Positions 10,533 to 38,710 of a stretch of DNA of 64,000 nt are shown piece by piece. The stretch's first letter is position 1; each line of letters opens with the position of its first letter. Made by a program: the position numbers and the translations under genes. The DNA is from Escherichia coli. GTDB taxonomy: Bacteria; Pseudomonadota; Gammaproteobacteria; Enterobacterales; Enterobacteriaceae. Under the pieces are notes generated by a model that ran no database searches, was not told the DNA's origin, and worked only from the letters and a program-made list of their open reading frames with translations. Where the stretch lies: the NCBI RefSeq assembly GCF_001677475.2, contig NZ_CP015229.1. One strand, given 5' to 3'.

Positions 10533-10570
10533 GCCAACCCTTCCGGTTGCAGCCTGAGAAATCAGGCTGA

Positions 10571-10602
10571 TGGCTGGTGACTTTTTAGTCACCAGCCTTT
10601 TT
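10571..10602 (+). terminator. rplL-rpoB intergenic attenuator (partial terminator)
   Basis: Hairpin GGCUGGUGACUUUUUAGUCACCAGCC followed by UUUUUG, in the 319-nt rplL-rpoB spacer. Confidence 0.75.
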
Positions 10603-14956: not shown

Positions 14957-17900
14957 GTGAAAGATTTATTAAAGTTTCTGAAAGCGCAGACTAAAACCGA
15001 AGAGTTTGATGCGATCAAAATTGCTCTGGCTTCGCCAGACATGATCCGTTCATGGTCTTTCGGTGAAGTTAAAAAGCCGGAAACCATCAACTACCGTACG
15101 TTCAAACCAGAACGTGACGGCCTTTTCTGCGCCCGTATCTTTGGGCCGGTAAAAGATTACGAGTGCCTGTGCGGTAAGTACAAGCGCCTGAAACACCGTG
15201 GCGTCATCTGTGAGAAGTGCGGCGTTGAAGTGACCCAGACTAAAGTACGCCGTGAGCGTATGGGCCACATCGAACTGGCTTCCCCGACTGCGCACATCTG
15301 GTTCCTGAAATCGCTGCCGTCCCGTATCGGCCTGCTGCTCGATATGCCGCTGCGCGATATCGAACGCGTACTGTACTTCGAATCCTATGTGGTTATCGAA
15401 GGCGGTATGACCAACCTGGAACGTCAGCAGATCCTGACTGAAGAGCAGTATCTGGACGCGCTGGAAGAGTTCGGTGACGAATTCGACGCGAAAATGGGTG
15501 CGGAAGCAATCCAGGCCCTGCTGAAGAGCATGGATCTGGAGCAAGAGTGCGAACAGCTGCGTGAAGAGCTGAACGAAACTAACTCCGAAACCAAGCGTAA
15601 AAAGCTGACCAAGCGTATCAAACTGCTGGAAGCGTTCGTTCAGTCTGGTAACAAACCAGAGTGGATGATCCTGACCGTTCTGCCGGTACTGCCGCCAGAT
15701 CTGCGTCCGCTGGTTCCGCTGGATGGTGGTCGTTTCGCGACTTCTGACCTGAACGATCTGTATCGTCGCGTCATTAACCGTAACAACCGTCTGAAACGTC
15801 TGCTGGATCTGGCTGCGCCGGACATCATCGTACGTAACGAAAAACGTATGCTGCAGGAAGCGGTTGACGCCCTGTTGGATAACGGTCGTCGCGGTCGTGC
15901 GATCACCGGTTCTAACAAGCGTCCTCTGAAATCTTTGGCCGACATGATCAAAGGTAAACAGGGTCGTTTCCGTCAGAACTTGCTCGGTAAGCGTGTTGAC
16001 TACTCCGGTCGTTCTGTAATCACCGTAGGTCCATACCTGCGTCTGCATCAGTGCGGTCTGCCGAAGAAAATGGCACTGGAGCTGTTCAAACCGTTCATCT
16101 ATGGCAAGCTGGAACTGCGTGGTCTTGCTACCACCATTAAAGCTGCGAAGAAAATGGTTGAGCGCGAAGAAGCTGTCGTTTGGGATATCCTGGACGAAGT
16201 TATCCGCGAACACCCGGTACTGCTGAACCGTGCACCGACTCTGCACCGTCTGGGTATCCAGGCATTTGAACCGGTACTGATCGAAGGTAAAGCTATCCAG
16301 CTGCACCCGCTGGTTTGTGCGGCATATAACGCCGACTTCGATGGTGACCAGATGGCTGTTCACGTACCGCTGACGCTGGAAGCCCAGCTGGAAGCGCGTG
16401 CGCTGATGATGTCTACCAACAACATCCTGTCCCCGGCGAACGGCGAACCAATCATCGTTCCGTCTCAGGACGTTGTTCTGGGTCTGTACTATATGACCCG
16501 TGACTGTGTTAACGCCAAAGGCGAAGGCATGGTGCTGACTGGCCCGAAAGAAGCAGAACGTCTGTATCGCTCTGGTCTGGCTTCTCTGCATGCGCGCGTT
16601 AAAGTGCGTATCACCGAGTATGAAAAAGATGCTAACGGTGAATTAGTAGCGAAAACCAGCCTGAAAGACACGACTGTTGGCCGTGCCATTCTGTGGATGA
16701 TTGTACCGAAAGGTCTGCCTTACTCCATCGTCAACCAGGCGCTGGGTAAAAAAGCAATCTCCAAAATGCTGAACACCTGCTACCGCATTCTCGGTCTGAA
16801 ACCGACCGTTATTTTTGCGGACCAGATCATGTACACCGGCTTCGCCTATGCAGCGCGTTCTGGTGCATCTGTTGGTATCGATGACATGGTCATCCCGGAG
16901 AAGAAACACGAAATCATCTCCGAGGCAGAAGCAGAAGTTGCTGAAATTCAGGAGCAGTTCCAGTCTGGTCTGGTAACTGCGGGCGAACGCTACAACAAAG
17001 TTATCGATATCTGGGCTGCGGCGAACGATCGTGTATCCAAAGCGATGATGGATAACCTGCAAACTGAAACCGTTATTAACCGTGACGGTCAGGAAGAGAA
17101 GCAGGTTTCCTTCAACAGCATCTACATGATGGCCGACTCCGGTGCGCGTGGTTCTGCGGCACAGATTCGTCAGCTTGCTGGTATGCGTGGTCTGATGGCG
17201 AAGCCGGATGGCTCCATCATCGAAACGCCAATCACCGCGAACTTCCGTGAAGGCCTGAACGTACTCCAGTACTTCATCTCCACCCACGGTGCTCGTAAGG
17301 GTCTGGCGGATACCGCACTGAAAACTGCGAACTCCGGTTACCTGACTCGTCGTCTGGTTGACGTGGCGCAGGACCTGGTGGTTACCGAAGACGATTGTGG
17401 TACCCATGAAGGTATCATGATGACTCCGGTTATCGAGGGTGGTGACGTTAAAGAGCCGCTGCGCGATCGCGTACTGGGTCGTGTAACTGCTGAAGACGTT
17501 CTGAAGCCGGGTACTGCTGATATACTCGTTCCGCGCAACACGCTGCTGCACGAACAGTGGTGTGACCTGCTGGAAGAGAACTCTGTCGACGCGGTTAAAG
17601 TACGTTCTGTTGTATCTTGTGACACCGACTTTGGTGTATGTGCGCACTGCTACGGTCGTGACCTGGCGCGTGGCCACATCATCAACAAAGGTGAGGCAAT
17701 CGGTGTTATCGCGGCACAGTCCATCGGTGAACCGGGTACACAGCTGACCATGCGTACGTTCCACATCGGTGGTGCGGCATCTCGTGCGGCTGCTGAATCC
17801 AGCATCCAGGTGAAAAACAAAGGTAGCATCAAGCTCAGCAACGTGAAGTCGGTTGTGAACTCCAGCGGTAAACTGGTTATCACTTCCCGTAACACCGAAC

Positions 17901-19180
17901 TGAAACTGATCGACGAATTCGGTCGTACCAAAGAAAGCTACAAAGTGCCTTACGGTGCGGTACTGGCGAAAGGCGATGGCGAACAGGTTGCTGGTGGCGA
18001 AACCGTTGCAAACTGGGACCCGCACACCATGCCGGTTATCACCGAAGTAAGCGGTTTTGTACGCTTTACTGACATGATCGACGGCCAGACCATTACGCGT
18101 CAGACCGACGAACTGACCGGTCTGTCTTCGCTGGTGGTTCTGGATTCCGCAGAACGTACCGCAGGTGGTAAAGATCTGCGTCCGGCACTGAAAATCGTTG
18201 ATGCTCAGGGTAACGACGTTCTGATCCCGGGTACCGATATGCCTGCGCAGTACTTCCTGCCGGGTAAAGCGATTGTTCAGCTGGAAGATGGCGTACAGAT
18301 CAGCTCTGGTGACACCCTGGCGCGTATTCCGCAGGAATCCGGCGGTACCAAGGACATCACCGGTGGTCTGCCGCGCGTTGCGGACCTGTTCGAAGCACGT
18401 CGTCCGAAAGAGCCGGCAATCCTGGCTGAAATCAGCGGTATCGTTTCCTTCGGTAAAGAAACCAAAGGTAAACGTCGTCTGGTTATCACCCCGGTAGATG
18501 GTAGCGATCCGTACGAAGAGATGATTCCGAAATGGCGTCAGCTCAACGTGTTTGAAGGTGAACGTGTAGAACGTGGTGACGTAATTTCCGACGGTCCGGA
18601 AGCGCCGCACGACATTCTGCGTCTGCGTGGTGTTCATGCTGTTACTCGTTACATCGTTAACGAAGTACAGGACGTATACCGTCTGCAGGGCGTTAAGATT
18701 AACGATAAACACATCGAAGTTATCGTTCGTCAGATGCTGCGTAAAGCTACCATCGTTAACGCGGGCAGCTCCGACTTCCTGGAAGGCGAACAGGTTGAAT
18801 ACTCTCGCGTCAAGATCGCAAACCGCGAACTGGAAGCGAACGGCAAAGTGGGTGCAACTTACTCCCGCGATCTGCTGGGTATCACCAAAGCGTCTCTGGC
18901 AACCGAGTCCTTCATCTCCGCGGCATCGTTCCAGGAGACCACTCGCGTGCTGACCGAAGCAGCCGTTGCGGGCAAACGCGACGAACTGCGCGGCCTGAAA
19001 GAGAACGTTATCGTGGGTCGTCTGATCCCGGCTGGTACCGGTTACGCGTATCACCAGGATCGTATGCGTCGCCGTGCTGCGGGTGAAGCTCCGGCTGCAC
19101 CGCAGGTGACTGCAGAAGACGCATCTGCCAGCCTGGCAGAACTGCTGAACGCAGGTCTGGGCGGTTCTGATAACGAGTAA
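14957..19180 (+). CDS. rpoC: DNA-directed RNA polymerase subunit beta'
   Basis: 1407-aa ORF starting GTG ([17 protein letters not shown]...), zinc-binding Cys cluster, NADFDGD active site. Confidence 0.98.
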
Positions 19181-19201
19181 TCGTTAATCCGAAAATAACG
19201 T

Positions 19202-19228
19202 AAAAACCCGCTTCGGCGGGTTTTTTTA
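19202..19228 (+). terminator. rpoC intrinsic terminator
   Basis: Hairpin AAAAACCCGCUUCGGCGGGUUUUUUUA 22 nt after the rpoC stop. Confidence 0.85.
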
Positions 19229-19261
19229 TGGGAGTTATTCAGAGGGCAAAGTCTTCACGGG

Positions 19262-19308
19262 AAATATTAAGAAAGGCAGGGCGAAACGAGGAAGAAGCTT
19301 TTCGCCCT
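19262..19308 (-). terminator. Putative terminator of the thi operon
   Basis: Minus-strand hairpin CAGGGCGAAA...UUUCGCCCUG followed by a U-rich tract downstream of the thiH stop. Confidence 0.4.
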
Positions 19309-19421
19309 GGACAACATTCCTGCTGACGGCACTACCATAAAAAAACACAACGCTTTCAACAACCTTGCGTTTTTCATCTTCCGGAGCTGCTCGGAATAAA
19401 TTTACGTTCTTACATTCCGTC

Positions 19422-20555
19422 TCATGGCCTTTGCGAGGCGCGTCCCAGATAGCTGTCCCAGTCTTTCCATACCGGCTGCAAACCCTGAGCGGTTAACGCG
19501 GCAGCAACCGCTTCCGGTCTGCGATCGTCGTGTGGTGAGAACTGTTCCAGCTCGGGGTGATTGTCGGCATAACCCCCTGGCTGCGTTTTCGAGAAGGCGC
19601 TGACGTTATTGATCGCCAGCGGAATAACGCGATCGCGAAACCACGGTGATTCCCGCGTGGAGAGTGACAGTTCAATCTCCGGTGCAAGCAGTCGGAAGGC
19701 GCAGATGGTTTGCACTAACTGGCGTTCATCCATAATCGACGCAGGCTCAATGCCGCCAGTACACGGGCGCAGGCGCGGAAAGGAGACAGAGTAACGGCTT
19801 TGCCAGTAATGCTGTTGCAGCCATAGCAAATGTTCGGCAACCATATAGCAGTCAACGCGCCAGCTGTCGGAAAGGCCAATTAGCGCGCCGAGGCCTATCT
19901 TATCAATCCCCGCACACCCCAGCCGATCCGGCGTTTCCAGCCGCCAGAAGAAGTCCTGTTTTTTGCCTTTCAGATGATGACGGGCATATGTCGCCTCGTG
20001 ATACGTCTCCTGATAAACCATCACCCCATCGAGACCAAGCTGTTTTAGCTCGGCATATTCCGCCTCCGCCAGCGGTTGCACTTCCAGCTGTAGTGAAGAG
20101 AACTGTTCACGCAGGGCAGGAAGATGACGACGAAAGTAATCCATCCCCACTTTCGCCTGATGTTCACCAGTGACTAATAGCAGATGTTCAAAGCCCATCT
20201 CCCGTATAGCGGCGCTTTCCCTGGCAATATCCGCTTCATCCAGCGTTTTGCGCTTGATGCGGTTGCTCATGGAAAATCCGCAGTACGTGCAGTCGTTAGC
20301 GCAAAGATTGGAAAGATAAAGCGGGACGTAAAGACTGACAACGTTGCCAAATCGTTGACGGGTCAGACGCTGCGCCCGTTGGGCCAGTGGTTCCAGATAG
20401 CCACTGGCGGCTGGCGATAACAGCGCCATCATATCGTCGCGGGTGAGTTGCGAGGCATTTAGCGCCCGCTCTACGTCAGCAGCCGTTTTGCTGTTGATAT
20501 GCAGGCGGATGTCGTCCCAGTCCAGTTGTCGCCAGCGATCGCTGAAGGTTTTCAT
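19422..20555 (-). CDS. thiH: 2-iminoacetate synthase (radical SAM, thiazole biosynthesis)
   Basis: 377-aa ORF with CxxxCxxC radical-SAM motif ([10 protein letters not shown]). Confidence 0.95.
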
Positions 20556-21322
20556 GCCGATGCCTCCAGAAATCCGGTCAGCGGGCTGGTGGCATGAGCA
20601 AAATGACTGCGGCTGCCCGGTCCGGCCTGACGTGCCAGCAGGCCTGCTTCTACCGCCAGGCGAAATGCCTTCGCCATGTTGACGGGATCGTCCGCGACGG
20701 CAATCGCCGTATTCACTAACACCGCGTCGGCCCCCATTTCCAGCGCCTGCGCGGCATGGCTGGGAACGCCGATGCCAGCGTCGACAACCACCGGAACCGT
20801 GGCTTGCTGGATAATAATCTCCAGCATGGCACGGGTTTCCAGTCCCTGATTCGAGCCAATCGGCGCGCCGAGCGGCATCACCGCTGCACAGCCGACTTCT
20901 TCCAGACGTTTACACAATACCGGATCGGCCCCGCAGTAAGGCAGCACGACAAATCCCTGTTGTACCAGCGTTTCGGCGGCTTTCAGGGTTTCGATGGGAT
21001 CGGGCAACAGCCAGCGGGCGTCAGGGTGAATCTCTAATTTTAGCCAGTTTGTGCCTAACGCTTCACGTGCCAGATGGGCGGCGAAAATGGCTTCTTCCGC
21101 TGTTTTCGCCCCGGATGTATTCGGTAGCAGGGTCACACCCGCCGCGATAAGCGGTTCGAGGATAGCGTCGTTGTGCTGGCGCAAGTCGACACGTTTCATC
21201 GCCAGCGTCACCAGTTGGCTGCCGGAAGCGCGAATAGACTCCACCATCAGTTGTGATGAGGCGAATTTCCCGGTGCCGGTAAACAGATGTGAATCAAACG
21301 TTTTGTCCGCAATACGTAACAT
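20552..21322 (-). CDS. thiG: Thiazole synthase
   Basis: ORF track 342 aa is an upstream extension; start set to ATG giving 256 aa ([20 protein letters not shown]...). Confidence 0.93.
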
Positions 21323-21323
21323 C

Positions 21324-21524
21324 TCAACCCCCTGCAATAACCTGAAAAAGCAGGATCTGGTCGCCATCCTGCACGATATGTTGCGCCCACTGCTCACGCG
21401 GGACGATTTGCTGATTAATCGCCAGAGCCGCGCCCGCTTGTCGTTGGTCGAGTTGCTCCAGTAGTTCGTGAACCGTTTGCCCGGCGGCGCACTGCATCGG
21501 TTGATCGTTAAACAGGATCTGCAT
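21324..21524 (-). CDS. thiS: Sulfur carrier protein ThiS
   Basis: 66-aa product [15 protein letters not shown]... ending in GG (ubiquitin-like C-terminus). Confidence 0.92.
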
Positions 21525-22263
21525 TGCTTCCTCCGCATACTGGGCAACCACTGGCGCGGCGCAGCGCCAGGCTGCGCCACTGGCTAGACTTACCGTCGAA
21601 CAGTCGGAGTTCTCCCGCAGGCGTCTCTATACCGCTTAATAACTTAATGGCTTCCAGTGCCTGCAAAGTGCCCATAACCCCGACGACCGGGCCAACCACG
21701 CCCGCCGTGCGGCAGTTGCGTTCAGGCTCCTGGTTATCTGGCCACAGGCAGCGGTAACACCCCTGCTCCCAGGGCGGCGTCAGTACCATCAACTGACCGC
21801 CAAATCCGACCGCGCTGGCGGTGATAAGCGGCGTGTTGAGTGCCACGCAGGCGGCATTAATCTCCTGGCGAGTCGCCATATTGTCGGCACAGTCGAGCAC
21901 CACATCGGCTTGTGCAACCGCATCTTTTAACGCCTCACCCGTTAACCGTTGTTGTAGTGCTGTCAGTTGAATATCGGGATTCAACTGTGTCAGTCGCTGT
22001 TGGCTGACCTGCGATTTCGGGCGATCGATATCTTCAGTGGTAAAGAGGATTTGTCGTTGCAGATTGCTTAAATGCACATCGTCGTCATCTACCAGTACCA
22101 GCGTCCCGACGCCAGCGCCCGCCAGGTACAGCGCAGCAGGTGTCCCCAGCCCGCCAAGACCAATAATCAGCACCTGGCTATCGAGAAGTTTTTGCTGCCC
22201 GTCAAGAGCGATATCGTCGAGCAGGATTTGGCGGCTATAACGCATAAAATCACGGTCATTCAT
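21508..22263 (-). CDS. thiF: ThiS adenylyltransferase (E1-like)
   Basis: 251-aa product [15 protein letters not shown]... with GxGxxG nucleotide-binding motif and C-terminal CxxC. Confidence 0.93.
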
Positions 22264-22890
22264 CGCCAACTCCTGCAATTTCCTGCAACTGTGCCGTTGC
22301 CAAACGCCAGTCTGCGGCTTGAGTAATGGCGCTGACAACGGCGATACTGCCGACACCCGTCGCCATTACCGCTGGCGCGCGCGCCAGACTGATACCGCCA
22401 ATCGCCACGGTGGGATAATCCGCCAGTCGCTCAACATGCCGTGCCAGCTGTTCCAGCCCCTGCGGTGCAGAAGGCATCTGTTTGGTTTGCGTCGGGAACA
22501 CATGTCCCAGCGCGATATAAGAAGGGCGTGCTGCCAGCGCGACGTCGATTTCCATATCATCATGGGTCGAAACGCCCAGCCGCAGACCAGCCGCGCGGAT
22601 GGCGCTGAGATCGGTGGCTTGCAAATCTTCCTGCCCCAAATGGACGCCATACGCCTGATGCTTGATCGCCAGCCGCCAGTAATCGTTGATAAACAATCGC
22701 GCGTTATAGCGGCGGCCCAGTGTAATTGCCGTCACGACATCGGCTTCCACCTCTTCATCGCGCCGATCTTTGATGCGTAGCTGGAGAGTACGTACACCTG
22801 CATCCAACAGACGTTCGATCCACTGTACGCTGTCCACCACCGGGTACAGTCCTAAACGAAAGGGTACAGGAGGAAAATCAGGCTGATACA

Positions 22891-22891
<1 letters not shown>
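22256..22891 (-). CDS. thiE: Thiamine-phosphate synthase
   Basis: 211-aa product [19 protein letters not shown]...; an ATG one codon upstream (22894) is an alternative start. Confidence 0.92.
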
Positions 22892-24789
<1,898 letters not shown>

Positions 24790-24794
24790 TCATT

Positions 24795-24960
24795 CCAAAA
24801 AGTTAAGGACGTGGCTTGTCAGACGACGGATGAAGCAAGAGACGATCGCCGCAGGGGCGATGCGATAGCAGATTAACTCTTGTTCCCTTCGCAGGTATTA
24901 GCCTGATCAGGTTCCGCGGATCCCGAATAAACGGTCTCAGCCAGTTAAGGCACTCCGACA
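24795..24960 (-). promoter_or_regulatory. TPP riboswitch (thi-box) in the thiC leader
   Basis: Minus-strand leader contains ...GGAGUGCCUUAACUGGCUGAGACCGUUUAUUCGGGAUCCGCGGAACCUGAUCAGGCUAAUACCUGCGAAGGGAACAAG..., carrying the conserved CUGAGA core and flanking helices of the TPP aptamer. Confidence 0.8.
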
Positions 24961-24984
24961 AGAAATTAGCCCCACACACGGGGC
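24960..24984 (-). terminator. Putative rsd terminator
   Basis: Minus-strand hairpin GCCCCGUGUGUGGGGC followed by UAAUUUCUU. Confidence 0.45.
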
Positions 24985-25018
24985 GTTGAATGTAAATTAC
25001 GCGTTAACAGCGTAGAAC

Positions 25019-25495
25019 TCAAGCGGGATGTTTGACGCGGGCGGCGTCAAGTACCAGCAGAATCAACTTATCTTCCAGCACAAAGCGTGCTTCCAGCGCC
25101 TCGCCGATGTCAGATAAAACCTGTTGAAACTCAAGGTAATTATCATGATCGATGGCGGTTTCCAGGCTGGAATCGTAGTAATCCATAATCTGTTGGGTAT
25201 TGGCTTCGAGTTGCGGCCAAATCTTCGCGGCGCGCGCGAGTTGCCCGTTGCCTTCCAGCTTATGAAGAATGCGCTCATAAATACTGAAATGTCCGGCAGA
25301 CAAGTAATCGACCAGGCTCTGACAAAAATCATCAAGGGCTTTTTCGTTTAGCCTCATGTACGATTCTTTGCCAGGCTTAATGCCAACCAGATTGTAGTAA
25401 GCCACGAGCAGATGCTTACGTACATGTAGCCAGCGATCAACCAGTTTGTTACTTCCTCTGACGCGCTCCGTCAGGTTATCGAGCTGGTTAAGCAT
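25019..25495 (-). CDS. rsd: Regulator of sigma D (anti-sigma70)
   Basis: 158-aa ORF MLNQLDNLTERVRGSNKLVDRWLHVRKHLL... Confidence 0.93.
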   Translation of the reverse strand: MLNQLDNLTERVRGSNKLVDRWLHVRKHLLVAYYNLVGIKPGKESYMRLNEKALDDFCQSLVDYLSAGHFSIYERILHKLEGNGQLARAAKIWPQLEANTQQIMDYYDSSLETAIDHDNYLEFQQVLSDIGEALEARFVLEDKLILLVLDAARVKHPA

Positions 25496-25589
25496 GATTG
25501 ACTCCGCAAGTTTGTATTCAAAAACTGCTCTGTGAGAAATGTAAAAACCATGTTAAACATGCCAGTGATGCAAAGGTAGTGCAAGAGCT

Positions 25590-26363
25590 ATGGATCGTAT
25601 AATTGAAAAATTAGATCACGGCTGGTGGGTCGTCAGCCATGAACAAAAATTATGGTTGCCGAAGGGAGAATTGCCATATGGCGAAGCGGCAAATTTCGAT
25701 CTTGTGGGTCAGCGCGCACTACAAATCGGCGAATGGCAGGGGGAACCTGTTTGGTTAGTACAACAGCAGCGGCGTCACGATATGGGGTCGGTACGTCAGG
25801 TCATTGATCTCGATGTTGGGCTGTTTCAACTGGCCGGACGTGGCGTGCAACTGGCGGAGTTTTACCGATCGCATAAATACTGTGGTTACTGCGGGCATGA
25901 AATGTATCCAAGCAAAACCGAATGGGCGATGCTGTGCAGCCATTGCCGTGAGCGTTACTACCCGCAAATCGCCCCCTGCATTATTGTTGCCATCCGTCGC
26001 GATGATTCGATCCTCCTCGCCCAGCATACCCGCCATCGTAACGGTGTCCATACAGTACTTGCCGGATTCGTCGAAGTGGGTGAAACCCTCGAGCAGGCAG
26101 TCGCGCGGGAAGTGATGGAAGAGAGCGGCATCAAAGTCAAAAATCTGCGTTATGTGACCTCCCAACCGTGGCCGTTTCCCCAGTCTTTAATGACCGCGTT
26201 TATGGCGGAATATGACAGCGGCGAGATCGTGATCGACCCGAAAGAATTGCTCGAGGCGAACTGGTATCGCTATGACGATTTGCCATTACTCCCGCCGCCC
26301 GGCACTGTAGCGCGCCGTCTGATAGAAGATACGGTGGCGATGTGTCGGGCAGAGTATGAGTGA
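25590..26363 (+). CDS. nudC: NADH pyrophosphatase (Nudix)
   Basis: 257-aa ORF with zinc-ribbon Cys (CGYCGH...CSHC) and Nudix box. Confidence 0.94.
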
Positions 26364-26402
26364 TGATACACTGACCGCCTGACGCACTAAGGAACAGCCA
26401 AA

Positions 26403-27467
26403 ATGACCGAACTTAAAAACGATCGTTATCTGCGGGCGCTGCTGCGCCAGCCCGTTGATGTCACTCCAGTATGGATGATGCGCCAGGCGGGTCGCTATCT
26501 ACCAGAATATAAAGCCACGCGTGCTCAGGCGGGCGATTTTATGTCGCTGTGCAAAAACGCCGAACTGGCGTGCGAAGTGACTTTGCAGCCGCTGCGTCGC
26601 TATCCGTTGGACGCGGCGATCCTCTTTTCCGATATCCTCACCGTGCCGGACGCGATGGGGTTAGGGCTCTATTTTGAAGCCGGAGAAGGTCCTCGTTTTA
26701 CCTCGCCAGTCACCTGCAAAGCTGACGTTGATAAACTGCCAATTCCGGATCCGGAAGATGAACTGGGTTACGTGATGAACGCGGTGCGTACCATTCGCCG
26801 CGAACTGAAAGGCGAAGTGCCGCTGATTGGTTTTTCCGGCAGTCCGTGGACGCTGGCGACCTACATGGTGGAAGGCGGCAGCAGCAAAGCGTTCACCGTG
26901 ATCAAAAAAATGATGTATGCCGATCCGCAGGCGCTGCATGCTCTGCTCGATAAACTGGCGAAAAGCGTCACTTTGTATCTGAATGCGCAGATTAAAGCCG
27001 GTGCTCAGGCTGTGATGATTTTCGACACCTGGGGCGGCGTGCTTACCGGGCGCGATTATCAACAGTTCTCGCTTTATTACATGCATAAAATTGTTGATGG
27101 TTTACTGCGTGAAAACGACGGTCGCCGCGTACCGGTCACGCTGTTTACCAAAGGCGGCGGACAGTGGCTGGAAGCCATGGCAGAAACCGGTTGCGATGCG
27201 CTGGGCCTCGACTGGACAACGGATATCGCCGATGCGCGCCGCCGCGTGGGCAATAAAGTCGCGTTGCAGGGTAATATGGATCCGTCGATGCTGTACGCGC
27301 CGCCAGCCCGCATTGAAGAAGAAGTAGCGACTATACTTGCAGGTTTCGGTCACGGCGAAGGTCATGTCTTTAACCTTGGTCACGGCATTCATCAGGATGT
27401 GCCGCCAGAACATGCTGGCGTGTTTGTGGAGGCAGTGCATCGCTTATCTGAACAGTATCACCGCTAA
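26403..27467 (+). CDS. hemE: Uroporphyrinogen decarboxylase
   Basis: 354-aa [39 protein letters not shown]... Confidence 0.96.
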
Positions 27468-27476
27468 GGAGTGATT

Positions 27477-28148
27477 ATGGATCTCGCGTCATTACGCGCT
27501 CAACAAATCGAACTGGCTTCTTCTGTGATCCGCGAGGATCGACTCGATAAAGATCCGCCGGATCTGATCGCCGGAGCCGATGTCGGGTTTGAGCAGGGCG
27601 GAGAAGTGACGCGAGCGGCGATGGTGCTGCTGAAATACCCCTCGCTTGAGCTGGTGGAGTATAAAGTGGCCCGCATCGCCACCACCATGCCTTACATTCC
27701 AGGTTTTCTTTCCTTCCGCGAATATCCTGCGCTGCTGGCAGCGTGGGAGATGCTGTCGCAAAAGCCGGATTTAGTGTTTGTCGATGGTCACGGGATCTCG
27801 CATCCTCGCCGTCTTGGCGTCGCCAGCCACTTTGGTTTGCTGGTGGATGTGCCGACCATTGGCGTGGCGAAAAAACGGCTCTGCGGTAAATTCGAACCGC
27901 TCTCCAGCGAACCGGGCGCGCTGGCCCCACTGATGGATAAAGGCGAGCAGCTGGCCTGGGTCTGGCGCAGCAAAGCGCGCTGTAACCCGTTGTTTATCGC
28001 TACCGGTCATCGGGTCAGCGTGGACAGCGCGCTGGCGTGGGTACAACGCTGCATGAAAGGCTATCGTCTGCCGGAGCCAACGCGCTGGGCGGACGCGGTG
28101 GCCTCGGAACGTCCGGCGTTCGTGCGCTATACAGCAAATCAGCCCTAA
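27477..28148 (+). CDS. nfi: Endonuclease V
   Basis: ORF track 225 aa from GTG; start set to ATG giving 223 aa ([13 protein letters not shown]...). Confidence 0.93.
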
Positions 28149-28190
28149 TTCAGGTAAACTGCGGATAATTTCCGTATTTGAGAACTCAAC

Positions 28191-28781
28191 ATGTTACAAA
28201 ACCCAATTCATCTGCGTCTGGAGCGCCTGGAAAGCTGGCAGCATGTCACTTTCATGGCTTGCTTATGCGAACGCATGTACCCCAATTACGCCATGTTTTG
28301 CCAGCAAACCGGTTTTGGCGATGGGCAAATTTACCGCCGTATTCTCGATCTCATCTGGGAAACGCTGACCGTCAAAGACGCAAAAGTAAATTTCGACAGC
28401 CAACTGGAGAAATTTGAAGAAGCGATTCCTTCAGCCGACGATTTCGATCTGTACGGCGTTTATCCGGCAATCGATGCATGCGTGGCGTTAAGTGAACTGG
28501 TCCATTCGCGTTTGAGTGGTGAAACGCTCGAACACGCGGTAGAAGTGAGTAAGACCTCCATCACAACCGTTGCGATGCTGGAAATGACTCAGGCTGGTCG
28601 CGAAATGAGCGATGAAGAGCTCAAAGAAAACCCAGCTGTAGAGCAAGAATGGGATATTCAGTGGGAAATATTCCGACTTTTAGCTGAGTGCGAAGAACGC
28701 GACATCGAGCTGATAAAAGGCCTTAGGGCAGACCTGCGTGAGGCGGGTGAGAGCAATATTGGTATAATTTTTCAGCAATAA
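28191..28781 (+). CDS. yjaG: DUF416-family protein of unknown function
   Basis: 196-aa ORF, position conserved between nfi and hupA. Confidence 0.88.
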   Translation: MLQNPIHLRLERLESWQHVTFMACLCERMYPNYAMFCQQTGFGDGQIYRRILDLIWETLTVKDAKVNFDSQLEKFEEAIPSADDFDLYGVYPAIDACVALSELVHSRLSGETLEHAVEVSKTSITTVAMLEMTQAGREMSDEELKENPAVEQEWDIQWEIFRLLAECEERDIELIKGLRADLREAGESNIGIIFQQ

Positions 28782-28967
28782 GACCAGAAAACGTGATTTA
28801 ACGCCTGATTTGTCGTACCTGGAGTCTTCCCTTTCGCCCCCCGTCTGGTCTACATTTGGGGGGCGAAAAAAAGTGGCTATCGGTGCGTGTATGCAGGAGA
28901 GTGCTATTCTGGCATTTCCGTCGCACTCGATGCTTAGCAAGCGATAAACACATTGTAAGGATAACTT

Positions 28968-29240
28968 ATGAACAAGACTCAACTGATTGATGTAATTGCA
29001 GAGAAAGCAGAACTGTCCAAAACCCAGGCTAAAGCTGCTCTGGAGTCCACTCTGGCTGCAATTACTGAGTCTCTGAAAGAAGGCGATGCTGTACAACTGG
29101 TTGGTTTCGGTACCTTCAAAGTGAACCACCGCGCTGAGCGTACTGGCCGCAACCCGCAGACCGGTAAAGAAATCAAAATTGCCGCAGCTAACGTACCGGC
29201 ATTTGTTTCTGGCAAGGCACTGAAAGACGCAGTTAAGTAA
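28968..29240 (+). CDS. hupA: DNA-binding protein HU-alpha
   Basis: 90-aa [31 protein letters not shown]... Confidence 0.98.
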
Positions 29241-29267
29241 GATTGCGTGGCAGTGAACAGTTTTAAC

Positions 29268-29298
29268 GAAGGGGTGGTTTCACCCCTTTTGTCTTTCT
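29268..29298 (+). terminator. hupA intrinsic terminator
   Basis: Hairpin AAGGGGUG-GUUU-CACCCCUU followed by UUUGUCUUUCU. Confidence 0.8.
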
Positions 29299-29312
29299 GG
29301 CGTCGATCATTG

Positions 29313-29948
29313 ATGCTGGCTGGTGCTCTGTTTCTCACTGCCTGTAGCCACAACTCTTCACTTCCTCCCTTTACCGCCAGTGGATTTGCTGAAGACCAGG
29401 GCGCGGTACGTATCTGGCGAAAAGACAGCGGCGATAATGTGCATCTGCTTGCCGTGTTTAGCCCGTGGCGCAGTGGCGATACCACGACGCGAGAGTATCG
29501 CTGGCAGGGCGATAACCTCACGCTCATCAATATCAATGTTTACAGCAAACCGCCGGTGAACATTCGTGCGCGTTTTGACGATCGCGGCGATCTGAGCTTT
29601 ATGCAACGTGAATCCGATGGGGAAAAGCAGCAGCTTTCTAACGACCAAATCGATTTATACCGTTATCGTGCTGATCAGATCCGCCAGATTAGCGATGCCT
29701 TACGTCAGGGGAGAGTCGTGCTGCGCCAGGGGCGCTGGCATGCGATGGAACAGACCGTGACCACCTGCGAAGGGCAAACCATTAAACCTGATTTAGATTC
29801 GCAGGCGATAGCGCATATCGAGCGCCGCCAGAGCCGCTCTTCTGTTGATGTCAGCGTGGCATGGCTGGAAGCGCCCGAAGGTTCGCAATTACTGTTAGTG
29901 GCAAACTCTGATTTCTGTCGCTGGCAACCCAACGAGAAAACGTTCTGA
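29313..29948 (+). CDS. yjaH: Predicted lipoprotein, DUF1481 family
   Basis: Start set to ATG after the hupA terminator, giving MLAGALFLTACS lipobox signal; ORF track maximal ORF (GTG 29247, 233 aa) would span the terminator. Confidence 0.7.
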   Translation: MLAGALFLTACSHNSSLPPFTASGFAEDQGAVRIWRKDSGDNVHLLAVFSPWRSGDTTTREYRWQGDNLTLININVYSKPPVNIRARFDDRGDLSFMQRESDGEKQQLSNDQIDLYRYRADQIRQISDALRQGRVVLRQGRWHAMEQTVTTCEGQTIKPDLDSQAIAHIERRQSRSSVDVSVAWLEAPEGSQLLLVANSDFCRWQPNEKTF

Positions 29949-29949
29949 T

Positions 29950-30375
29950 TTACCAGTGGCCCATACCCATATGACCGCCACCACCGCAGCCGCCGTAGCC
30001 CATGCCCATTCCGGCTCCGCGCGGAATACCCGCTTCAGCCATCGCAATATCCCGTTTCACCCGTAACTCATCTAACGACTGACGCAAATTCTCCATCTCT
30101 TTGGCGACCGCGTTAATTTTGCTGCTATCCGGTGGGTTCGCGGCTAACAGGGCATTGTATTCATAACGCTTCGTCACCAGTTGCTGTTGCAGTGCGCTGC
30201 TTTGAGCGTAAAAGTCATTATGGATTTTCTGCCACGCTGTCTGTTGTTCGCTGGTCAAAGGCGCGGCATTTTGCTGCCACATACCGTGTCCGCCGTGAGC
30301 AAATGCAGATGTCGATCCCATCGCCATTGCTGAAAGCGCCATCATTACCAGGGCAATTTTCGTGTTCCGTTTCAT
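29950..30375 (-). CDS. zraP: Zinc-resistance-associated periplasmic protein
   Basis: Start set to ATG giving 141 aa (MKRNTKIALVMMALSAMAMG... signal peptide, Gly/Met/His-rich C-terminus). Confidence 0.9.
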   Translation of the reverse strand: MKRNTKIALVMMALSAMAMGSTSAFAHGGHGMWQQNAAPLTSEQQTAWQKIHNDFYAQSSALQQQLVTKRYEYNALLAANPPDSSKINAVAKEMENLRQSLDELRVKRDIAMAEAGIPRGAGMGMGYGGCGGGGHMGMGHW

Positions 30376-30410
30376 GGTTAATCCTCCAGTGGTTGTCTTA
30401 CTTCGGGTAT

Positions 30411-30426
30411 TGCATCTTCCGTGCCA
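30411..30426 (-). promoter_or_regulatory. Sigma54 promoter of zraP
   Basis: Minus-strand TGGCAC-GGAAGA-TGCA with GG/GC spaced 10 nt, about 35 nt upstream of the zraP start. Confidence 0.65.
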
Positions 30427-30469
30427 ACGATGAAACGCTGATATGACGGGTAATCTGGCATGATAAACG

Positions 30470-30515
30470 AGTAAAAATGACTCGCCTGCTGCGGGTAGCG
30501 AGTCATTTTTACTCA
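30470..30515. promoter_or_regulatory. ZraR enhancer site (inverted repeat) between zraP and zraS
   Basis: Perfect 17-bp inverted repeats GAGTAAAAATGACTCGC ... GCGAGTCATTTTTACTC separated by 12 bp. Confidence 0.7.
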
Positions 30516-30565
30516 TTGAAACTTAAGCCTTTGTGTTACAGCGCAGGGTAAGCGCTGATAAAAGA

Positions 30566-30581
30566 TGGCATGATTTCTGCT
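30566..30581 (+). promoter_or_regulatory. Sigma54 promoter of zraSR
   Basis: TGGCAT-GATTT-CTGC with GG/GC spaced 10 nt, about 30 nt upstream of the zraS ATG. Confidence 0.55.
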
Positions 30582-30612
30582 GTCAGAAAGGGATGAGCAG
30601 GCAAAGAAGAAG

Positions 30613-31989
30613 ATGCGTTTTATGCAACGTTCTAAAGACTCCTTAGCTAAATGGTTAAGCGCGATCCTCCCCGTGGTCATTGTTGGGCTGGTGGGGCTGT
30701 TTGCGGTGACTGTGATTCGCGATTATGGGCGCGAGACTGCCGCCGCCAGACAAACGCTGCTGGAAAAAGGCAGTGTACTTATCCGTGCTCTCGAATCCGG
30801 CTCGCGCGTCGGCATGGGGATGCGCATGCATCATGCGCAGCAGCAGGCATTACTGGAAGAAATGGCCGGGCAGCCTGGTGTACGTTGGTTTGCGGTCACG
30901 GATGAACAAGGAACAATCGTGATGCATAGCAACTCCGGCATGGTGGGAAAACAGCTTTATTCCCCGCAGGAAATGCAGCAGTTACATCCGGGAGATGAAG
31001 AAGCGTGGCGGCGGATCGATAGCGCAGACGGCGAGCCTGTTCTGGAAATTTATCGCCAGTTTCAACCGATGTTTGCTGCTGGAATGCACCGGATGCGCCA
31101 TATGCAGCAGTATGCCGCGACACCACAAGCAATTTTCATCGCTTTCGACGCCAGTAATATTGTGAGTGCCGAAGATCGTGAGCAGAGAAACACCCTGATT
31201 ATCCTTTTCGCCCTGGCGACGGTCTTGCTGGCAAGCGTATTGTCATTCTTCTGGTATCGCCGCTATCTGCGCTCGCGCCAGCTTCTACAAGATGAAATGA
31301 AGCGCAAAGAGAAGCTGGTGGCGCTGGGGCATCTTGCGGCAGGCGTTGCCCACGAAATCCGTAACCCACTTTCCTCGATTAAAGGACTGGCGAAATACTT
31401 TGCCGAGCGCGCGCCTGCAGGGGGAGAAGCGCATCAACTGGCGCAGGTGATGGCGAAAGAGGCCGACCGTTTAAACCGCGTGGTAAGCGAGTTGCTGGAA
31501 CTGGTTAAGCCAACGCATCTGGCTTTGCAGGCGGTGGATCTCAACACGCTGATTAACCACTCATTACAGCTGGTAAGCCAGGATGCAAACAGCCGGGAGA
31601 TCCAGTTACGCTTTACCGCCAACGACACATTACCGGAAATTCAGGCCGATCCGGACAGGCTGACTCAGGTCCTGTTGAATCTCTATCTCAATGCTATTCA
31701 GGCGATTGGTCAGCATGGCGTGATTAGCGTGACGGCCAGCGAAAGCGGCGCGGGCGTGAAAATTAGCGTTACCGACAGCGGTAAGGGAATTGCGGCAGAT
31801 CAGCTTGAAGCCATCTTCACCCCGTACTTCACCACCAAAGCCGAAGGCACCGGACTGGGGCTGGCGGTCGTGCATAATATTGTTGAACAACACGGTGGTA
31901 CAATTCAGGTCGCAAGCCAGGAGGGAAAAGGCGCAACGTTCACCCTCTGGCTTCCGGTCAATATTACGCGTAAGGACCCACAAGGATGA
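30613..31989 (+). CDS. zraS: Sensor histidine kinase of the ZraSR two-component system
   Basis: 458-aa ORF with TM N-terminus, H-box (HEIRNPL) and ATPase G-boxes. Confidence 0.93.
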   Translation: MRFMQRSKDSLAKWLSAILPVVIVGLVGLFAVTVIRDYGRETAAARQTLLEKGSVLIRALESGSRVGMGMRMHHAQQQALLEEMAGQPGVRWFAVTDEQGTIVMHSNSGMVGKQLYSPQEMQQLHPGDEEAWRRIDSADGEPVLEIYRQFQPMFAAGMHRMRHMQQYAATPQAIFIAFDASNIVSAEDREQRNTLIILFALATVLLASVLSFFWYRRYLRSRQLLQDEMKRKEKLVALGHLAAGVAHEIRNPLSSIKGLAKYFAERAPAGGEAHQLAQVMAKEADRLNRVVSELLELVKPTHLALQAVDLNTLINHSLQLVSQDANSREIQLRFTANDTLPEIQADPDRLTQVLLNLYLNAIQAIGQHGVISVTASESGAGVKISVTDSGKGIAADQLEAIFTPYFTTKAEGTGLGLAVVHNIVEQHGGTIQVASQEGKGATFTLWLPVNITRKDPQG

Positions 31990-33311
31990 CGCACGATAAT
32001 ATCGATATTCTGGTGGTGGATGATGACATTAGCCACTGCACTATTTTGCAGGCTTTACTGCGCGGCTGGGGCTATAACGTCGCGCTGGCGAACAGCGGGC
32101 GACAGGCGCTGGAGCAGGTGCGGGAGCGAGTTTTTGATCTTGTGCTTTGCGATGTGCGAATGGCAGAGATGGATGGCATCGCCACGCTGAAAGAGATCAA
32201 AACATTAAACCCCGCGATTCCGGTGCTGATTATGACCGCGTACTCCAGCGTCGAGACGGCGGTAGAGGCGTTGAAAACCGGGGCGCTGGATTATCTCATC
32301 AAGCCGCTGGATTTCGATAACCTGCAGGCGACGCTGGAAAAGGCGCTCGCACATACGCACAGTGTTGACGCTGAAACGCCTGCGGTGTCTGCCAGCCAGT
32401 TCGGTATGGTCGGTAAAAGCCCGGCGATGCAACACCTGCTCAGTGAAATCGCCCTCGTCGCGCCATCGGAAGCCACGGTGCTGATCCACGGCGATTCCGG
32501 CACCGGTAAAGAGTTGGTCGCCAGGGCGATTCACGCCAGTAGCGCACGGAGTGAAAAACCACTGGTAACGCTCAACTGTGCGGCACTCAACGAATCCTTG
32601 CTGGAATCTGAATTGTTCGGTCACGAAAAAGGGGCGTTTACTGGAGCTGATAAACGCCGGGAAGGGCGCTTTGTTGAGGCGGATGGCGGCACGTTGTTTC
32701 TCGATGAAATTGGCGATATCTCGCCGATGATGCAGGTGCGTCTGCTACGTGCGATTCAGGAGCGCGAAGTTCAGCGTGTCGGTAGCAACCAGACTATTTC
32801 GGTTGATGTCCGGCTGATTGCGGCGACTCATCGCGATCTTGCCGCAGAGGTGAATGCCGGGCGTTTTCGCCAGGATCTCTACTATCGCCTGAATGTGGTG
32901 GCGATTGAAGTACCGTCGCTGCGGCAACGGCGGGAAGATATTCCTCTGCTGGCTGGTCATTTTCTTCAGCGCTTTGCCGAACGTAATCGCAAGGCGGTAA
33001 AAGGTTTTACGCCCCAGGCGATGGATCTGCTGATTCATTACGACTGGCCGGGCAATATTCGTGAGCTGGAAAATGCGGTGGAACGGGCAGTGGTGCTGCT
33101 GACCGGGGAATATATTTCCGAACGCGAGCTGCCGCTGGCGATTGCCAGTACGCCGATCCCGCTGGTACAAAGTCAGGATATTCAGCCGCTGGTGGAAGTC
33201 GAAAAAGAAGTGATTCTGGCGGCACTGGAGAAAACGGGCGGCAACAAAACCGAAGCCGCCCGTCAGTTAGGGATCACGCGCAAAACGCTATTGGCAAAAC
33301 TGTCGCGTTAG
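31986..33311 (+). CDS. zraR: Sigma54-dependent response regulator ZraR
   Basis: 441-aa ORF with receiver domain, AAA+ sigma54-activation domain (GAFTGA) and C-terminal HTH. Confidence 0.95.
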
Positions 33312-34597: not shown

Positions 34598-34608
34598 CTA
34601 TTGCTCCA

Positions 34609-38517: not shown

Positions 38518-38710
38518 CTTGCTGGTTTGTGAGTGAAAGTCACCTGCCTTAATATCTCAAAATTCATCTTCGGGTGATGTTTGAGATATTTGCTCTTTAA
38601 AAATCTGGATCAAGCTGAAAATTGAAACACTGAACAACGAAAGTTGTTCGTGAGTCTCTCAAATTTTCGCAACACGATGATGAATCGAAAGAAACATCTT
38701 CGGGTTGTGA

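What the first reader, a model, noticed from the sequence alone, without database searches (positions are those of the whole stretch)
19181..19421. Compact rpoC-thiH spacer apparently lacking the K-12 gene htrC (yjaZ)
Only 241 bp separate the rpoC and thiH stop codons (convergent), containing the rpoC terminator and a probable thi operon terminator but no plus-strand ORF of useful length. From memory, K-12 carries a ~180-codon gene (htrC/yjaZ) in this spacer, making it roughly 0.5 kb longer. If correct, this strain naturally lacks htrC, which bears on whether that gene is real or essential at high temperature.
Basis: inference. Interest (0 to 1): 0.3.

Follow-up and report, generated by a model that had tools for sequence, protein, structure and literature searches.

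The report
Empty yjaZ–sroH site beside rpoC
This E. coli strain lacks a 0.9-kb insert (the yjaZ/"htrC" gene plus the small RNA gene sroH) that K-12 carries between rpoC and thiH; about 30% of sequenced E. coli lack it too, so this is a common, previously reported and harmless polymorphism.

Summary
rpoC ends at 19180, thiH ends at 19422, and the spacer is 241 bp with no meaningful ORF.

K-12's spacer is 1161 bp, so it is 920 bp longer, not about 0.5 kb. The extra DNA holds yjaZ and also the sRNA gene sroH. Neither is found anywhere in the 64-kb window.

This is a major polymorphism. Of 5,426 complete E. coli genomes, 1,629 (30%, including ST131 and strain 83972) have the compact spacer and about 3,720 (69%) have the insert. 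Absence of sroH from phylogroups B2 and D was published in 2012. The "htrC" function of yjaZ has been retracted. ΔyjaZ is used as a neutral marker, and O157:H7 carries a frameshifted copy.

The K-12 insert is AT-rich (41% vs 54% GC). None of 80 other Enterobacteriaceae species sampled has it at this locus. Homologous yjaZ–sroH pairs occur on plasmids. The compact spacer is therefore most likely the never-occupied site, though loss is not excluded.

By-products: yjaZ–sroH is a conserved, mobile protein-plus-RNA pair. The thiH side of the spacer holds a covarying two-hairpin RNA-like element that is absent from Rfam.

The parts
14957..19180 (+). rpoC coding sequence (1407 aa); its stop codon ends at 19180
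   Evidence: ORF list. The 3' end is identical to K-12 rpoC in the alignment. E. coli genome hits are annotated as rpoC.
19202..19227 (+). rpoC intrinsic terminator: A5, CCCGC-TTCG-GCGGG hairpin, T7. It is symmetric, so it can also terminate minus-strand transcripts.
   Evidence: Read directly from the sequence. The terminator scan calls it on the minus strand. RNA fold -17.2 kcal/mol. Identical in K-12 and in all compact alleles examined.
19233..19262 (.). Junction segment of about 30 bp found only in compact alleles (AGTTATTCAGAGGGCAAAGTCTTCACGGGA). K-12 has about 940 bp (yjaZ plus sroH) in its place.
   Evidence: Pairwise alignment with K-12. Shared by compact alleles from ST131, TCM3e1, 09-02E, APEC E956 and C3. 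No significant similarity to the edges of the K-12 insert or to E. whittamii / MOD1-EC7003.
19277..19309 (-). Hairpin B of a conserved RNA-like element: CAGGGCGAAA, a C/U-rich loop (AGCUUCUUCCUCG), then UUUCGCCCUG. All lineage-specific cargo begins about 10 nt beyond it.
   Evidence: Fold -18.5 kcal/mol. Present in 54-57 of 82 Enterobacteriaceae sequences at a fixed distance after thiH. Of its 9 pairs, 6 show compensatory double changes, and 97.9% of cells are paired. 0 of 500 shuffles reach the covariation score. G.U pairs occur but no A.C, so the thiH-sense strand is the one that folds.
19310..19327 (-). Hairpin A of the same element (GUCAGCAGGAAUGUUGUC in E. coli; GUCAGCA-ACGGAU-GCUGAC in most genera). 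It abuts hairpin B directly.
   Evidence: Alignment A4. 91% of cells are paired, with one pair showing double changes. This hairpin is weaker in E. coli, which has a U.U mismatch.
19334..19375 (-). Hairpin plus U7, the probable thi-operon intrinsic terminator (19339-19375). It overlaps a promoter-like motif of fixed geometry: TTGTTG at 19357-19362, a 17-nt spacer, then TATGGT at 19334-19339.
   Evidence: Fold -22.3 kcal/mol, z = -2.6. TTG / 17 nt / TAnnnT is conserved at fixed positions in 57 loci, including genera that lack the U-run. The hexamers are weak, and the consensus promoter scan does not call them.
19422..20555 (-). thiH coding sequence (377 aa); the outermost base of its stop codon is 19422
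   Evidence: ORF list. E. coli genome hits are annotated as thiH. The exact protein is on record as E. coli ThiH, ANO91941.1.

Best explanation
The window carries the 'empty-site' allele of a common presence/absence polymorphism at the convergent rpoC/thiH junction of E. coli.

The 241-bp spacer has four parts: the rpoC intrinsic terminator; a junction of about 30 bp specific to this allele; a conserved two-hairpin RNA-like element; and the hairpin-plus-U7 terminator of the thi operon.

K-12-type strains (roughly phylogroups A, B1, C and E) carry about 940 bp of AT-rich DNA in place of the 30-bp junction. That DNA holds two convergent transcription units, yjaZ and the sRNA gene sroH, which share a bidirectional terminator. 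The same protein-plus-RNA pair occurs on plasmids and phage-plasmids.

The K-12 state is therefore most likely a horizontal gain, and the compact spacer is the ancestral state that was never occupied. The polarity is inferred, not shown.

The functional consequence for this strain is only that it lacks YjaZ and SroH. No heat-sensitivity or other defect is expected, because yjaZ is dispensable.
For: - Exact boundaries and the 920-bp difference.
- No yjaZ or sroH anywhere in the window.
- Frequencies among 5,426 complete genomes: 1,629 compact versus 3,717-3,741 with the insert. Compact carriers include ST131 and strain 83972.
- Insert GC is 41%, against 54-55% for rpoC and thiH.
- None of 80 species-representative Enterobacteriaceae loci has yjaZ or sroH next to thiH.
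- YjaZ homologues occur on 577 plasmid records and on no phage record.
- The nearest homologue (78% aa) is a reverse-oriented gene among the tail genes of an 88-kb phage-plasmid. On a 2,462-bp ColRNAI plasmid the homologue is the only annotated gene.
- sroH (Rfam RF00372, 99-160 bits) abuts the yjaZ homologue in all six cases of 57% identity or more. It is still adjacent, though rearranged, in V. parahaemolyticus.
- K-12 shares its right-flank polymorphism ACGGAATTTTTAAG with a subset of compact alleles. This is consistent with insertion into such a background.
- Dispensability: O157:H7 carries a 71-bp frameshifting deletion in yjaZ; ΔyjaZ::kan is used as a marker; the htrC designation has been retracted.
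Against: - Skippington & Ragan (PMC3318445) interpreted the same phyletic pattern (sroH absent from B2 + D, ATCC 8739, S. flexneri, S. sonnei 046) as secondary loss.
- The K-12 insert has no flanking direct repeats, att-like site or recombinase.
- The 30 bp unique to compact alleles is not found in K-12 or in the outgroups. Neither allele can be derived from the other by one clean insertion or deletion.
- The two Escherichia outgroups that were recovered show a third state, a different island.
- Genomes were not typed for phylogroup here.
Confidence: 0.8

Rival explanations
1. The compact spacer is a secondary deletion. On this view the E. coli ancestor carried yjaZ-sroH, and the lineages of this window, B2, D and others lost it.
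For: This is the published interpretation of the sroH pattern. Independent decay does happen: O157:H7 has a frameshifted yjaZ, some genomes have IS1 inside the insert or partial deletions, and the paper lists scattered absences in ATCC 8739 and Shigella.
Against: - Compact alleles from diverse lineages share the same junction and the same 30-bp segment, which K-12 lacks. A deletion of K-12-type DNA cannot create that segment.
- The insert is AT-rich.
- It is absent from all 80 outgroup species sampled.
- It has plasmid-borne counterparts with identical architecture.
Confidence: 0.18
2. yjaZ (htrC) is not absent from this strain but sits elsewhere, for example on a plasmid or phage-plasmid. On this view the compact spacer says nothing about the strain's gene content.
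For: Homologues at 77-78% identity exist on phage-plasmids of about 90 kb in E. coli, E. fergusonii and E. marmotae, and homologues at 59% on small ColRNAI plasmids. The ColE1 survey lists htrC as plasmid cargo.
Against: Only 23 Escherichia plasmid records of 72,556 carry a homologue. Nothing in the 64-kb window resembles it. In the E. coli genome survey almost all copies are single and chromosomal: 3,763 of 3,768 places.
Confidence: 0.04
3. The short spacer is an assembly collapse or a sequencing artefact.
For: None found.
Against: The same contiguous 241-bp spacer occurs in 1,629 complete genomes. It also occurs in an independent assembly with the identical ThiH. Both flanks align cleanly with K-12.
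Confidence: 0.01

Closest known systems
E. coli K-12 MG1655 rpoC-yjaZ-sroH-thiH region (b3988-b3990, b4691)
   Same: The flanks match: the rpoC 3' end and terminator are identical, and the 160-190 bp on the thiH side are 97-100% identical. Synteny holds across the whole window, from rrnB through rrnE.
   Different: K-12 has about 940 bp (yjaZ 540 bp, sroH 161 nt, their promoters and a shared terminator) where the window has about 30 unrelated bp. The spacers are 1161 and 241 bp.
Compact rpoC-thiH spacers of B2 and other E. coli (e.g. O25b:H4-ST131 strain 751, ABU strain 83972, TCM3e1)
   Same: Same 239-241-bp spacer, same junction sequence, 95.0-98.3% identity.
   Different: The window belongs to a rarer lineage. 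Its best identity to any of 5,426 complete genomes is 98.0% over 16.6 kb and 98.7% over the thi operon. A few point differences occur in the junction.
Published phyletic pattern of sroH (Skippington & Ragan 2012, PMC3318445)
   Same: It reports sroH missing from phylogroups B2 and D and from some other strains. This is the same polymorphism seen from the sRNA side.
   Different: That paper inferred loss. It did not connect sroH with yjaZ or with plasmid-borne copies. The present data favour gain.
RNA-antitoxin toxin-antitoxin modules: type III ToxIN-like, and type I systems with 3'-overlapping convergent RNAs such as txpA/RatA (own knowledge)
   Same: For the missing K-12 module only:
- a small protein gene tightly linked to a structured, conserved sRNA gene;
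- carriage on plasmids, including as sole cargo of a mini-plasmid;
- decay of the protein gene with the RNA retained, as in O157:H7;
   Different: - No PADLOC, Pfam or PHROGs hit.
- No repeats in SroH.
- No SroH-TIR complementarity.
- No evidence of toxicity.
- YjaZ, at 179 aa, is unlike type I toxins.

Membership tests
yjaZ / htrC protein family (NCBIfam NF007263; precomputed Pfam PF27200) | An ORF in the window that encodes a protein matching the family | tested here: not met
   tblastn of K-12 YjaZ against the whole window gives a best E of 0.4 over 18 aa. No ORF longer than 43 aa lies in the spacer. K-12 YjaZ itself scores 430 bits against NF007263.
sroH sRNA (Rfam RF00372) | A covariance-model match at or above the gathering score (80 bits) | tested here: not met
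   No sroH hit in the window, either at gathering threshold or at E up to 10 in the spacer. As positive controls, K-12 scores 201 bits and the plasmid copies score 99-160 bits.
Intrinsic (Rho-independent) terminator, rpoC side | A GC-rich hairpin immediately followed by a U-tract | tested here: met
   CCCGC-UUCG-GCGGG followed by U7 at 19207-19227. Identical in K-12. Termination activity itself cannot be tested here.
Intrinsic terminator, thi operon side | A hairpin followed by a U-tract downstream of thiH, on the thiH strand | tested here: met
   Hairpin plus U7 at 19339-19375 (-), -22.3 kcal/mol. An analogous hairpin plus U-run is present in Citrobacter, Salmonella, Klebsiella and Enterobacter. 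It is absent in several other genera.
Horizontally acquired islet (applies to the K-12 insert) | Atypical base composition | tested here: met
   41.1% GC against 53.8% (rpoC) and 55.0% (thiH).
Horizontally acquired islet (applies to the K-12 insert) | Homologues on mobile elements with the same gene architecture | tested here: met
   yjaZ plus convergent sroH on a phage-plasmid, a ColRNAI mini-plasmid, and IncF and IncI conjugative plasmids.
Horizontally acquired islet (applies to the K-12 insert) | Flanking direct repeats or an att site, or an associated recombinase | tested here: not met
   The only repeat at the right spacing is 12/14 nt. Edge similarity is no better than in shuffles or internal windows, p = 0.15-0.56. 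The K-12 insert has no recombinase ORF. Some plasmid copies do sit next to a tyrosine recombinase gene.
Toxin-antitoxin module with an RNA antitoxin (applies to yjaZ-sroH) | The protein has a recognised toxin fold or family | tested here: inconclusive
   [not shown]
Toxin-antitoxin module with an RNA antitoxin (applies to yjaZ-sroH) | The RNA is complementary to the toxin mRNA's translation-initiation region (type I), or consists of tandem repeats (type III) | tested here: not met
   Duplex energies are no better than shuffles in 6 of 7 modules. No repeats are visible in the SroH alignment.
Toxin-antitoxin module with an RNA antitoxin (applies to yjaZ-sroH) | The protein is toxic and the RNA neutralises it | not testable with these tools
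   This needs expression experiments.
Any described RNA family (Rfam 15), for the two-hairpin element after thiH | A covariance-model match | tested here: not met
   Only chance-level hits appear, and they fall on the rpoC terminator. Nothing matches at 19277-19327. No paper holds the sequence.

The most novel reading that the evidence does not exclude
The 920 bp missing here is not an ordinary 'gene plus neighbouring sRNA'. It may be a self-contained mobile protein-RNA system, in which YjaZ (a family of unknown function with a faint RelE/ParE-like resemblance) works with the structured RNA SroH. Possible roles include an RNA-antitoxin addiction module or an RNA-regulated effector. Such a system would ride on plasmids and would have been captured once behind the rpoC terminator. 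On this reading the window shows the virgin target site. That site itself retains an undescribed, covarying two-hairpin RNA conserved across Enterobacteriaceae.
Probability: 0.3. Interest if true: 0.6.

Novelty: already known. Interest (0 to 1): 0.2.

Why it matters
As stated, the finding matters little. The absence is a frequent natural allele, it has been noted before for sroH, and the heat-shock role of 'htrC' has already been withdrawn. The strain's genotype therefore adds no new leverage on essentiality.

It is useful as a correction for annotators. Neither yjaZ nor sroH belongs to the E. coli core genome, and sroH should not be treated as a chromosomal housekeeping sRNA.

Two side results could matter more if confirmed:
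1. SroH and YjaZ form a co-inherited mobile pair. That gives both orphan genes a testable functional context.
2. A strongly covarying RNA-like element sits directly after the thi operon in many enterobacterial genera and is absent from Rfam.

Tried and rejected
1. **Flanking direct repeats or an att site around the K-12 insert.** The eye-catching similarity of the compact junction to both insert edges is not significant. Shuffle tests give p = 0.15-0.56, and 30-58% of internal windows score as well.
2. **Using the 30-bp compact junction to set polarity by homology with outgroups.** Not significant against E. whittamii (p = 0.07), MOD1-EC7003 (p = 0.59) or K-12 (p = 0.40).
3. **The window coming from a non-E. 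coli Escherichia.** Its thi operon is 97.3% identical to K-12, but 95.2% to MOD1-EC7003 and 93.7% to E. whittamii. Its ThiH is recorded as E. coli. It is a rare E. coli lineage.
4. **YjaZ as a known defence, phage or Pfam-A family.** No hits.
6. **SroH as an antisense regulator of the yjaZ ribosome-binding site.** Duplex energies are no better than shuffles.
7. **The two-hairpin element as the 5' leader of the downstream GGDEF gene.** That gene has its own conserved promoter with a perfect TATAAT about 100 nt further on.
9. **The original htrC paper.** It is not held in the library.

Full report
**Observation**

The rpoC ORF runs 14957-19180 (+) and the thiH ORF runs 19422-20555 (-). They converge, and 241 bp (19181-19421) separate the stop codons. 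The longest plus-strand ORF in the spacer is 32 aa. The description is therefore accurate.

**Comparison with K-12**

In MG1655, rpoC ends at 4189573. yjaZ (b3989, 540 bp, +) occupies 4189786-4190325. The sRNA gene sroH (161 nt, -) occupies 4190327-4190487. thiH ends at 4190735. The K-12 spacer is thus 1161 bp, which is 920 bp longer than in the window, not about 0.5 kb.

The pairwise alignment is identical through the rpoC terminator up to ...TTTTTTTATGGG. It is again near-identical from about 160-190 bp before the thiH stop. In between, K-12 has about 940 bp where the window has about 30 bp (19233-19262).

Rfam finds sroH in K-12 at 201 bits and nowhere in the window. tblastn with YjaZ finds nothing in the window, with a best E of 0.4. 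The window lacks both genes.

**How common the allele is**

I surveyed 5,426 complete E. coli genomes.
- The K-12-only segment is present at 80% coverage or more in 3,717 genomes, and in 3,741 with any match.
- The 241-bp spacer is contiguous in 1,629 genomes, or 30%. These include O25b:H4-ST131 and ABU strain 83972.
- About 1% show other states, such as IS1 insertions or partial deletions.

Compact alleles from five unrelated strains share the same junction sequence.

The window itself is E. coli. Its ThiH is recorded as ANO91941.1, and the same 241-bp spacer occurs in an independent assembly. It comes from a rare lineage:
- best identity to any complete genome is 98.0% over 16.6 kb and 98.7% over the thi operon;
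- identity is 97.3% to K-12, 95.2% to Escherichia sp. MOD1-EC7003 and 93.7% to E. whittamii.

**What is already known**

- Skippington & Ragan (2012) list sroH as absent from phylogroups B2 and D, E. coli ATCC 8739, S. flexneri and S. sonnei 046. They interpreted this as loss (PMC3318445).
- The 2024 y-ome review names yjaZ (synonym htrC) as a gene whose initial functional designation was retracted (PMC11551758).
- ΔyjaZ::kan is used as a neutral marker linked to rpoC alleles (PMC4666387).
- The original claim of high-temperature essentiality (Raina & Georgopoulos 1990) is cited, but the paper is not held. What I say about it rests on its title and on my own knowledge.
- I found in addition that O157:H7 carries a 71-bp internal deletion (K-12 locus L001:5187-5257). 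It frameshifts yjaZ and removes the invariant C-terminal residues, while sroH stays intact.

So yjaZ is dispensable in nature. It is nevertheless a real gene:
- dN/dS against its closest plasmid homologue is about 0.06, with dS saturated at 2.1;
- 24 residues are invariant across 40 homologues of 47-78% identity;
- the AlphaFold model is confident, with pLDDT 90.4 and pTM 0.86.

**What the missing DNA is**

The K-12 insert is 41% GC, against 54-55% in rpoC and thiH.

YjaZ matches no family in the Pfam-A copy used, nor in PHROGs or PADLOC. It matches only its own NCBIfam model. Precomputed annotation places the family in PF27200.

Homologues occur on 577 plasmid records and on no phage record.
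- Most of these, including the large Klebsiella set, are distant relatives at about 29% identity.
- The nearest (77-78% aa) lie on phage-plasmids of about 90 kb in E. fergusonii, E. coli and E. marmotae, as a reverse-oriented gene among the tail and baseplate genes.
- At 59% identity, the homologue is the sole annotated gene of a 2,462-bp ColRNAI plasmid found in E. coli, K. pneumoniae and P. mirabilis.
- A ColE1 survey already lists htrC as plasmid cargo (PMC5864857).

Every homologue of 57% identity or more that I examined has an sroH homologue (99-160 bits) convergent with it and abutting its stop codon, exactly as in K-12. These were the phage-plasmid, the ColRNAI plasmid, and the Enterobacter, Serratia and Edwardsiella plasmids. 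In V. parahaemolyticus (34% aa) an sroH-like RNA (60 bits, E = 7e-12) is still adjacent, but it lies upstream on the same strand. sroH was not detected next to the most distant relatives at 29-35% identity.

The SroH core of about 130 nt is 74-91% identical between K-12 and the enterobacterial plasmid copies. The helices change in a compensatory way and the single-stranded stretches are invariant. Meanwhile synonymous sites in the adjoining gene are saturated. Both partners are therefore under selection and are co-inherited.

How the pair works is not shown.
- SroH does not pair with the yjaZ ribosome-binding region better than shuffled sequences do.
- Foldseek and a sequence-profile search are negative.

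A reading as a toxin-antitoxin-like or RNA-regulated effector is a hypothesis only.

**Gain or loss**

None of 80 species-representative Enterobacteriaceae loci has yjaZ or sroH next to thiH. The thiH-rpoC spacer ranges from 328 bp to more than 5 kb, so this junction is generally variable.

E. whittamii and MOD1-EC7003 carry an unrelated island that begins at the same point. It holds a DUF4867 protein, an 895-aa protein with no family match, and a permease.

Composition, plasmid counterparts, absence from outgroups and the shared compact junction together favour a gain in the K-12-type lineages.

Four points count against certainty:
- the insert has no flanking repeats or recombinase;
- the 30 bp unique to compact alleles has no detectable counterpart in K-12 or in the outgroups;
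- the published inference is loss;
- the nearest outgroup species were not retrieved.

I put gain at about 0.7-0.8.

**What remains in the spacer**

The rpoC terminator sits at 19202-19227.

On the thiH strand, a hairpin followed by U7 (19339-19375) is the likely thi terminator. Beyond it lie two abutting hairpins: A at 19310-19327 and B at 19277-19309.
- They are conserved at a fixed distance after thiH in 54-57 of 82 sequences, from Escherichia, Citrobacter, Salmonella, Klebsiella, Raoultella, Enterobacter, Lelliottia, Leclercia, Kluyvera, Cedecea, Buttiauxella, Kosakonia and Siccibacter.
- In hairpin B, 6 of 9 pairs show compensatory double changes and 97.9% of cells are paired.
- For the two-hairpin structure as a whole, 0 of 500 shuffles reach the covariation score, and slid controls pair at 23-49%.
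- G.U pairs occur without A.C, which points to an RNA on the thiH-sense strand.
- The loop is a near-invariant C/U-rich CUUCUUCCUC.
- Nothing in Rfam 15 or in the paper library matches it.

Upstream of hairpin A there is TTG, then 17 nt, then TAnnnT, at fixed positions in 57 loci. This holds even where no terminator exists, and it suggests a promoter. However, the hexamers are weak and the promoter scan does not call them. No U-tract follows hairpin B. The GGDEF gene found downstream in 20 genera has its own promoter with a perfect TATAAT. The element's role is unexplained.

**Verdict**

The feature is an ordinary, already reported polymorphism. The side observations on the yjaZ-sroH pair and on the thiH-downstream RNA-like element are the parts worth following up.

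Noticed in passing
K-12 locus L001:4787-5488; plasmid loci L082, L083, L091, L092, L093, L095: yjaZ and sroH form a conserved, co-inherited pair on plasmids and phage-plasmids. sroH is convergent and abuts the yjaZ stop codon in 6 of 6 homologues of 57% identity or more. In V. parahaemolyticus it lies upstream on the same strand. The SroH core is 74-91% identical between K-12 and the plasmid copies, while synonymous sites in yjaZ are saturated. I found no paper describing this linkage.
   Followed up: partly
window 19277-19327 (minus strand): A two-hairpin RNA-like element with strong covariation and a near-invariant C/U-rich loop (CUUCUUCCUC). It is conserved about 70-100 nt after thiH in at least 13 enterobacterial genera. 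It is absent from Rfam 15 and its function is unknown.
   Followed up: partly
window 19334-19362 (minus strand): A promoter-like motif of fixed geometry (TTG, 17 nt, TAnnnT) overlaps the thi terminator and is conserved across genera. It would start transcription at hairpin A (about 19327). In compact-allele E. coli this could give an orphan RNA of about 130 nt that ends at the reverse side of the rpoC terminator. The hexamers are weak, and this is untested.
   Followed up: partly
L089 (E. coli O157:H7 F7508), equivalent to L001:5187-5257: O157:H7's 'protein HtrC' is a frameshifted yjaZ. A 71-bp internal deletion leaves a 147-aa product that lacks invariant residues. sroH is intact.
   Followed up: yes
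L002:6295-11128 and L003:6295-11131: E. whittamii and Escherichia sp. MOD1-EC7003 carry a different island at exactly the same junction after hairpin B. It holds a DUF4867 protein, an 895-aa protein with no Pfam match, and a cytosine/purine-type permease. No rpoC lies within 5 kb.
   Followed up: partly
L010-L013, L016-L018, L020, L024, L028, L038-L042, L047, L052, L075 (about 90-200 nt after hairpin B): In 20 species the gene after thiH is a membrane sensor with a GGDEF domain (510-550 aa, a diguanylate cyclase). It has a conserved TAAGATAAATCATC box and a perfect TATAAT. Escherichia lacks this gene at the locus. Eight other species have a PTS IIB gene there instead.
   Followed up: no
window 19400-36000: The window has no close relative among 5,426 complete RefSeq E. 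coli genomes (best 98.0% over 16.6 kb). Yet its exact ThiH sequence occurs in at least 17 assemblies labelled E. coli. It is a rare or under-sampled lineage.
   Followed up: partly
L092:589-1299, L093:619-1329, L094:239-805: On Serratia, Edwardsiella and V. harveyi plasmids the yjaZ homologue sits directly downstream of a small tyrosine-type or serine-type recombinase gene. This may be relevant to how the module moves.
   Followed up: no
L097:1483-2040 and about 370 Klebsiella plasmid records: A distant YjaZ-like family (about 29% identity over residues 3-148) is very common on Klebsiella plasmids. In L097 it sits next to a restriction-endonuclease gene and IS elements. No sroH was detected beside it.
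   Followed up: no
window 10537-10598 (+) and 38595-38703 (+): Rfam gathering-level hits to 'Pseudomonas sRNA P26' (74.5 bits) and to StyR-44 (124.9 bits, just upstream of the 23S rRNA gene). I took these to be routine features of the ribosomal-protein/rpoB region and of rrn operons, and did not examine them.
   Followed up: no
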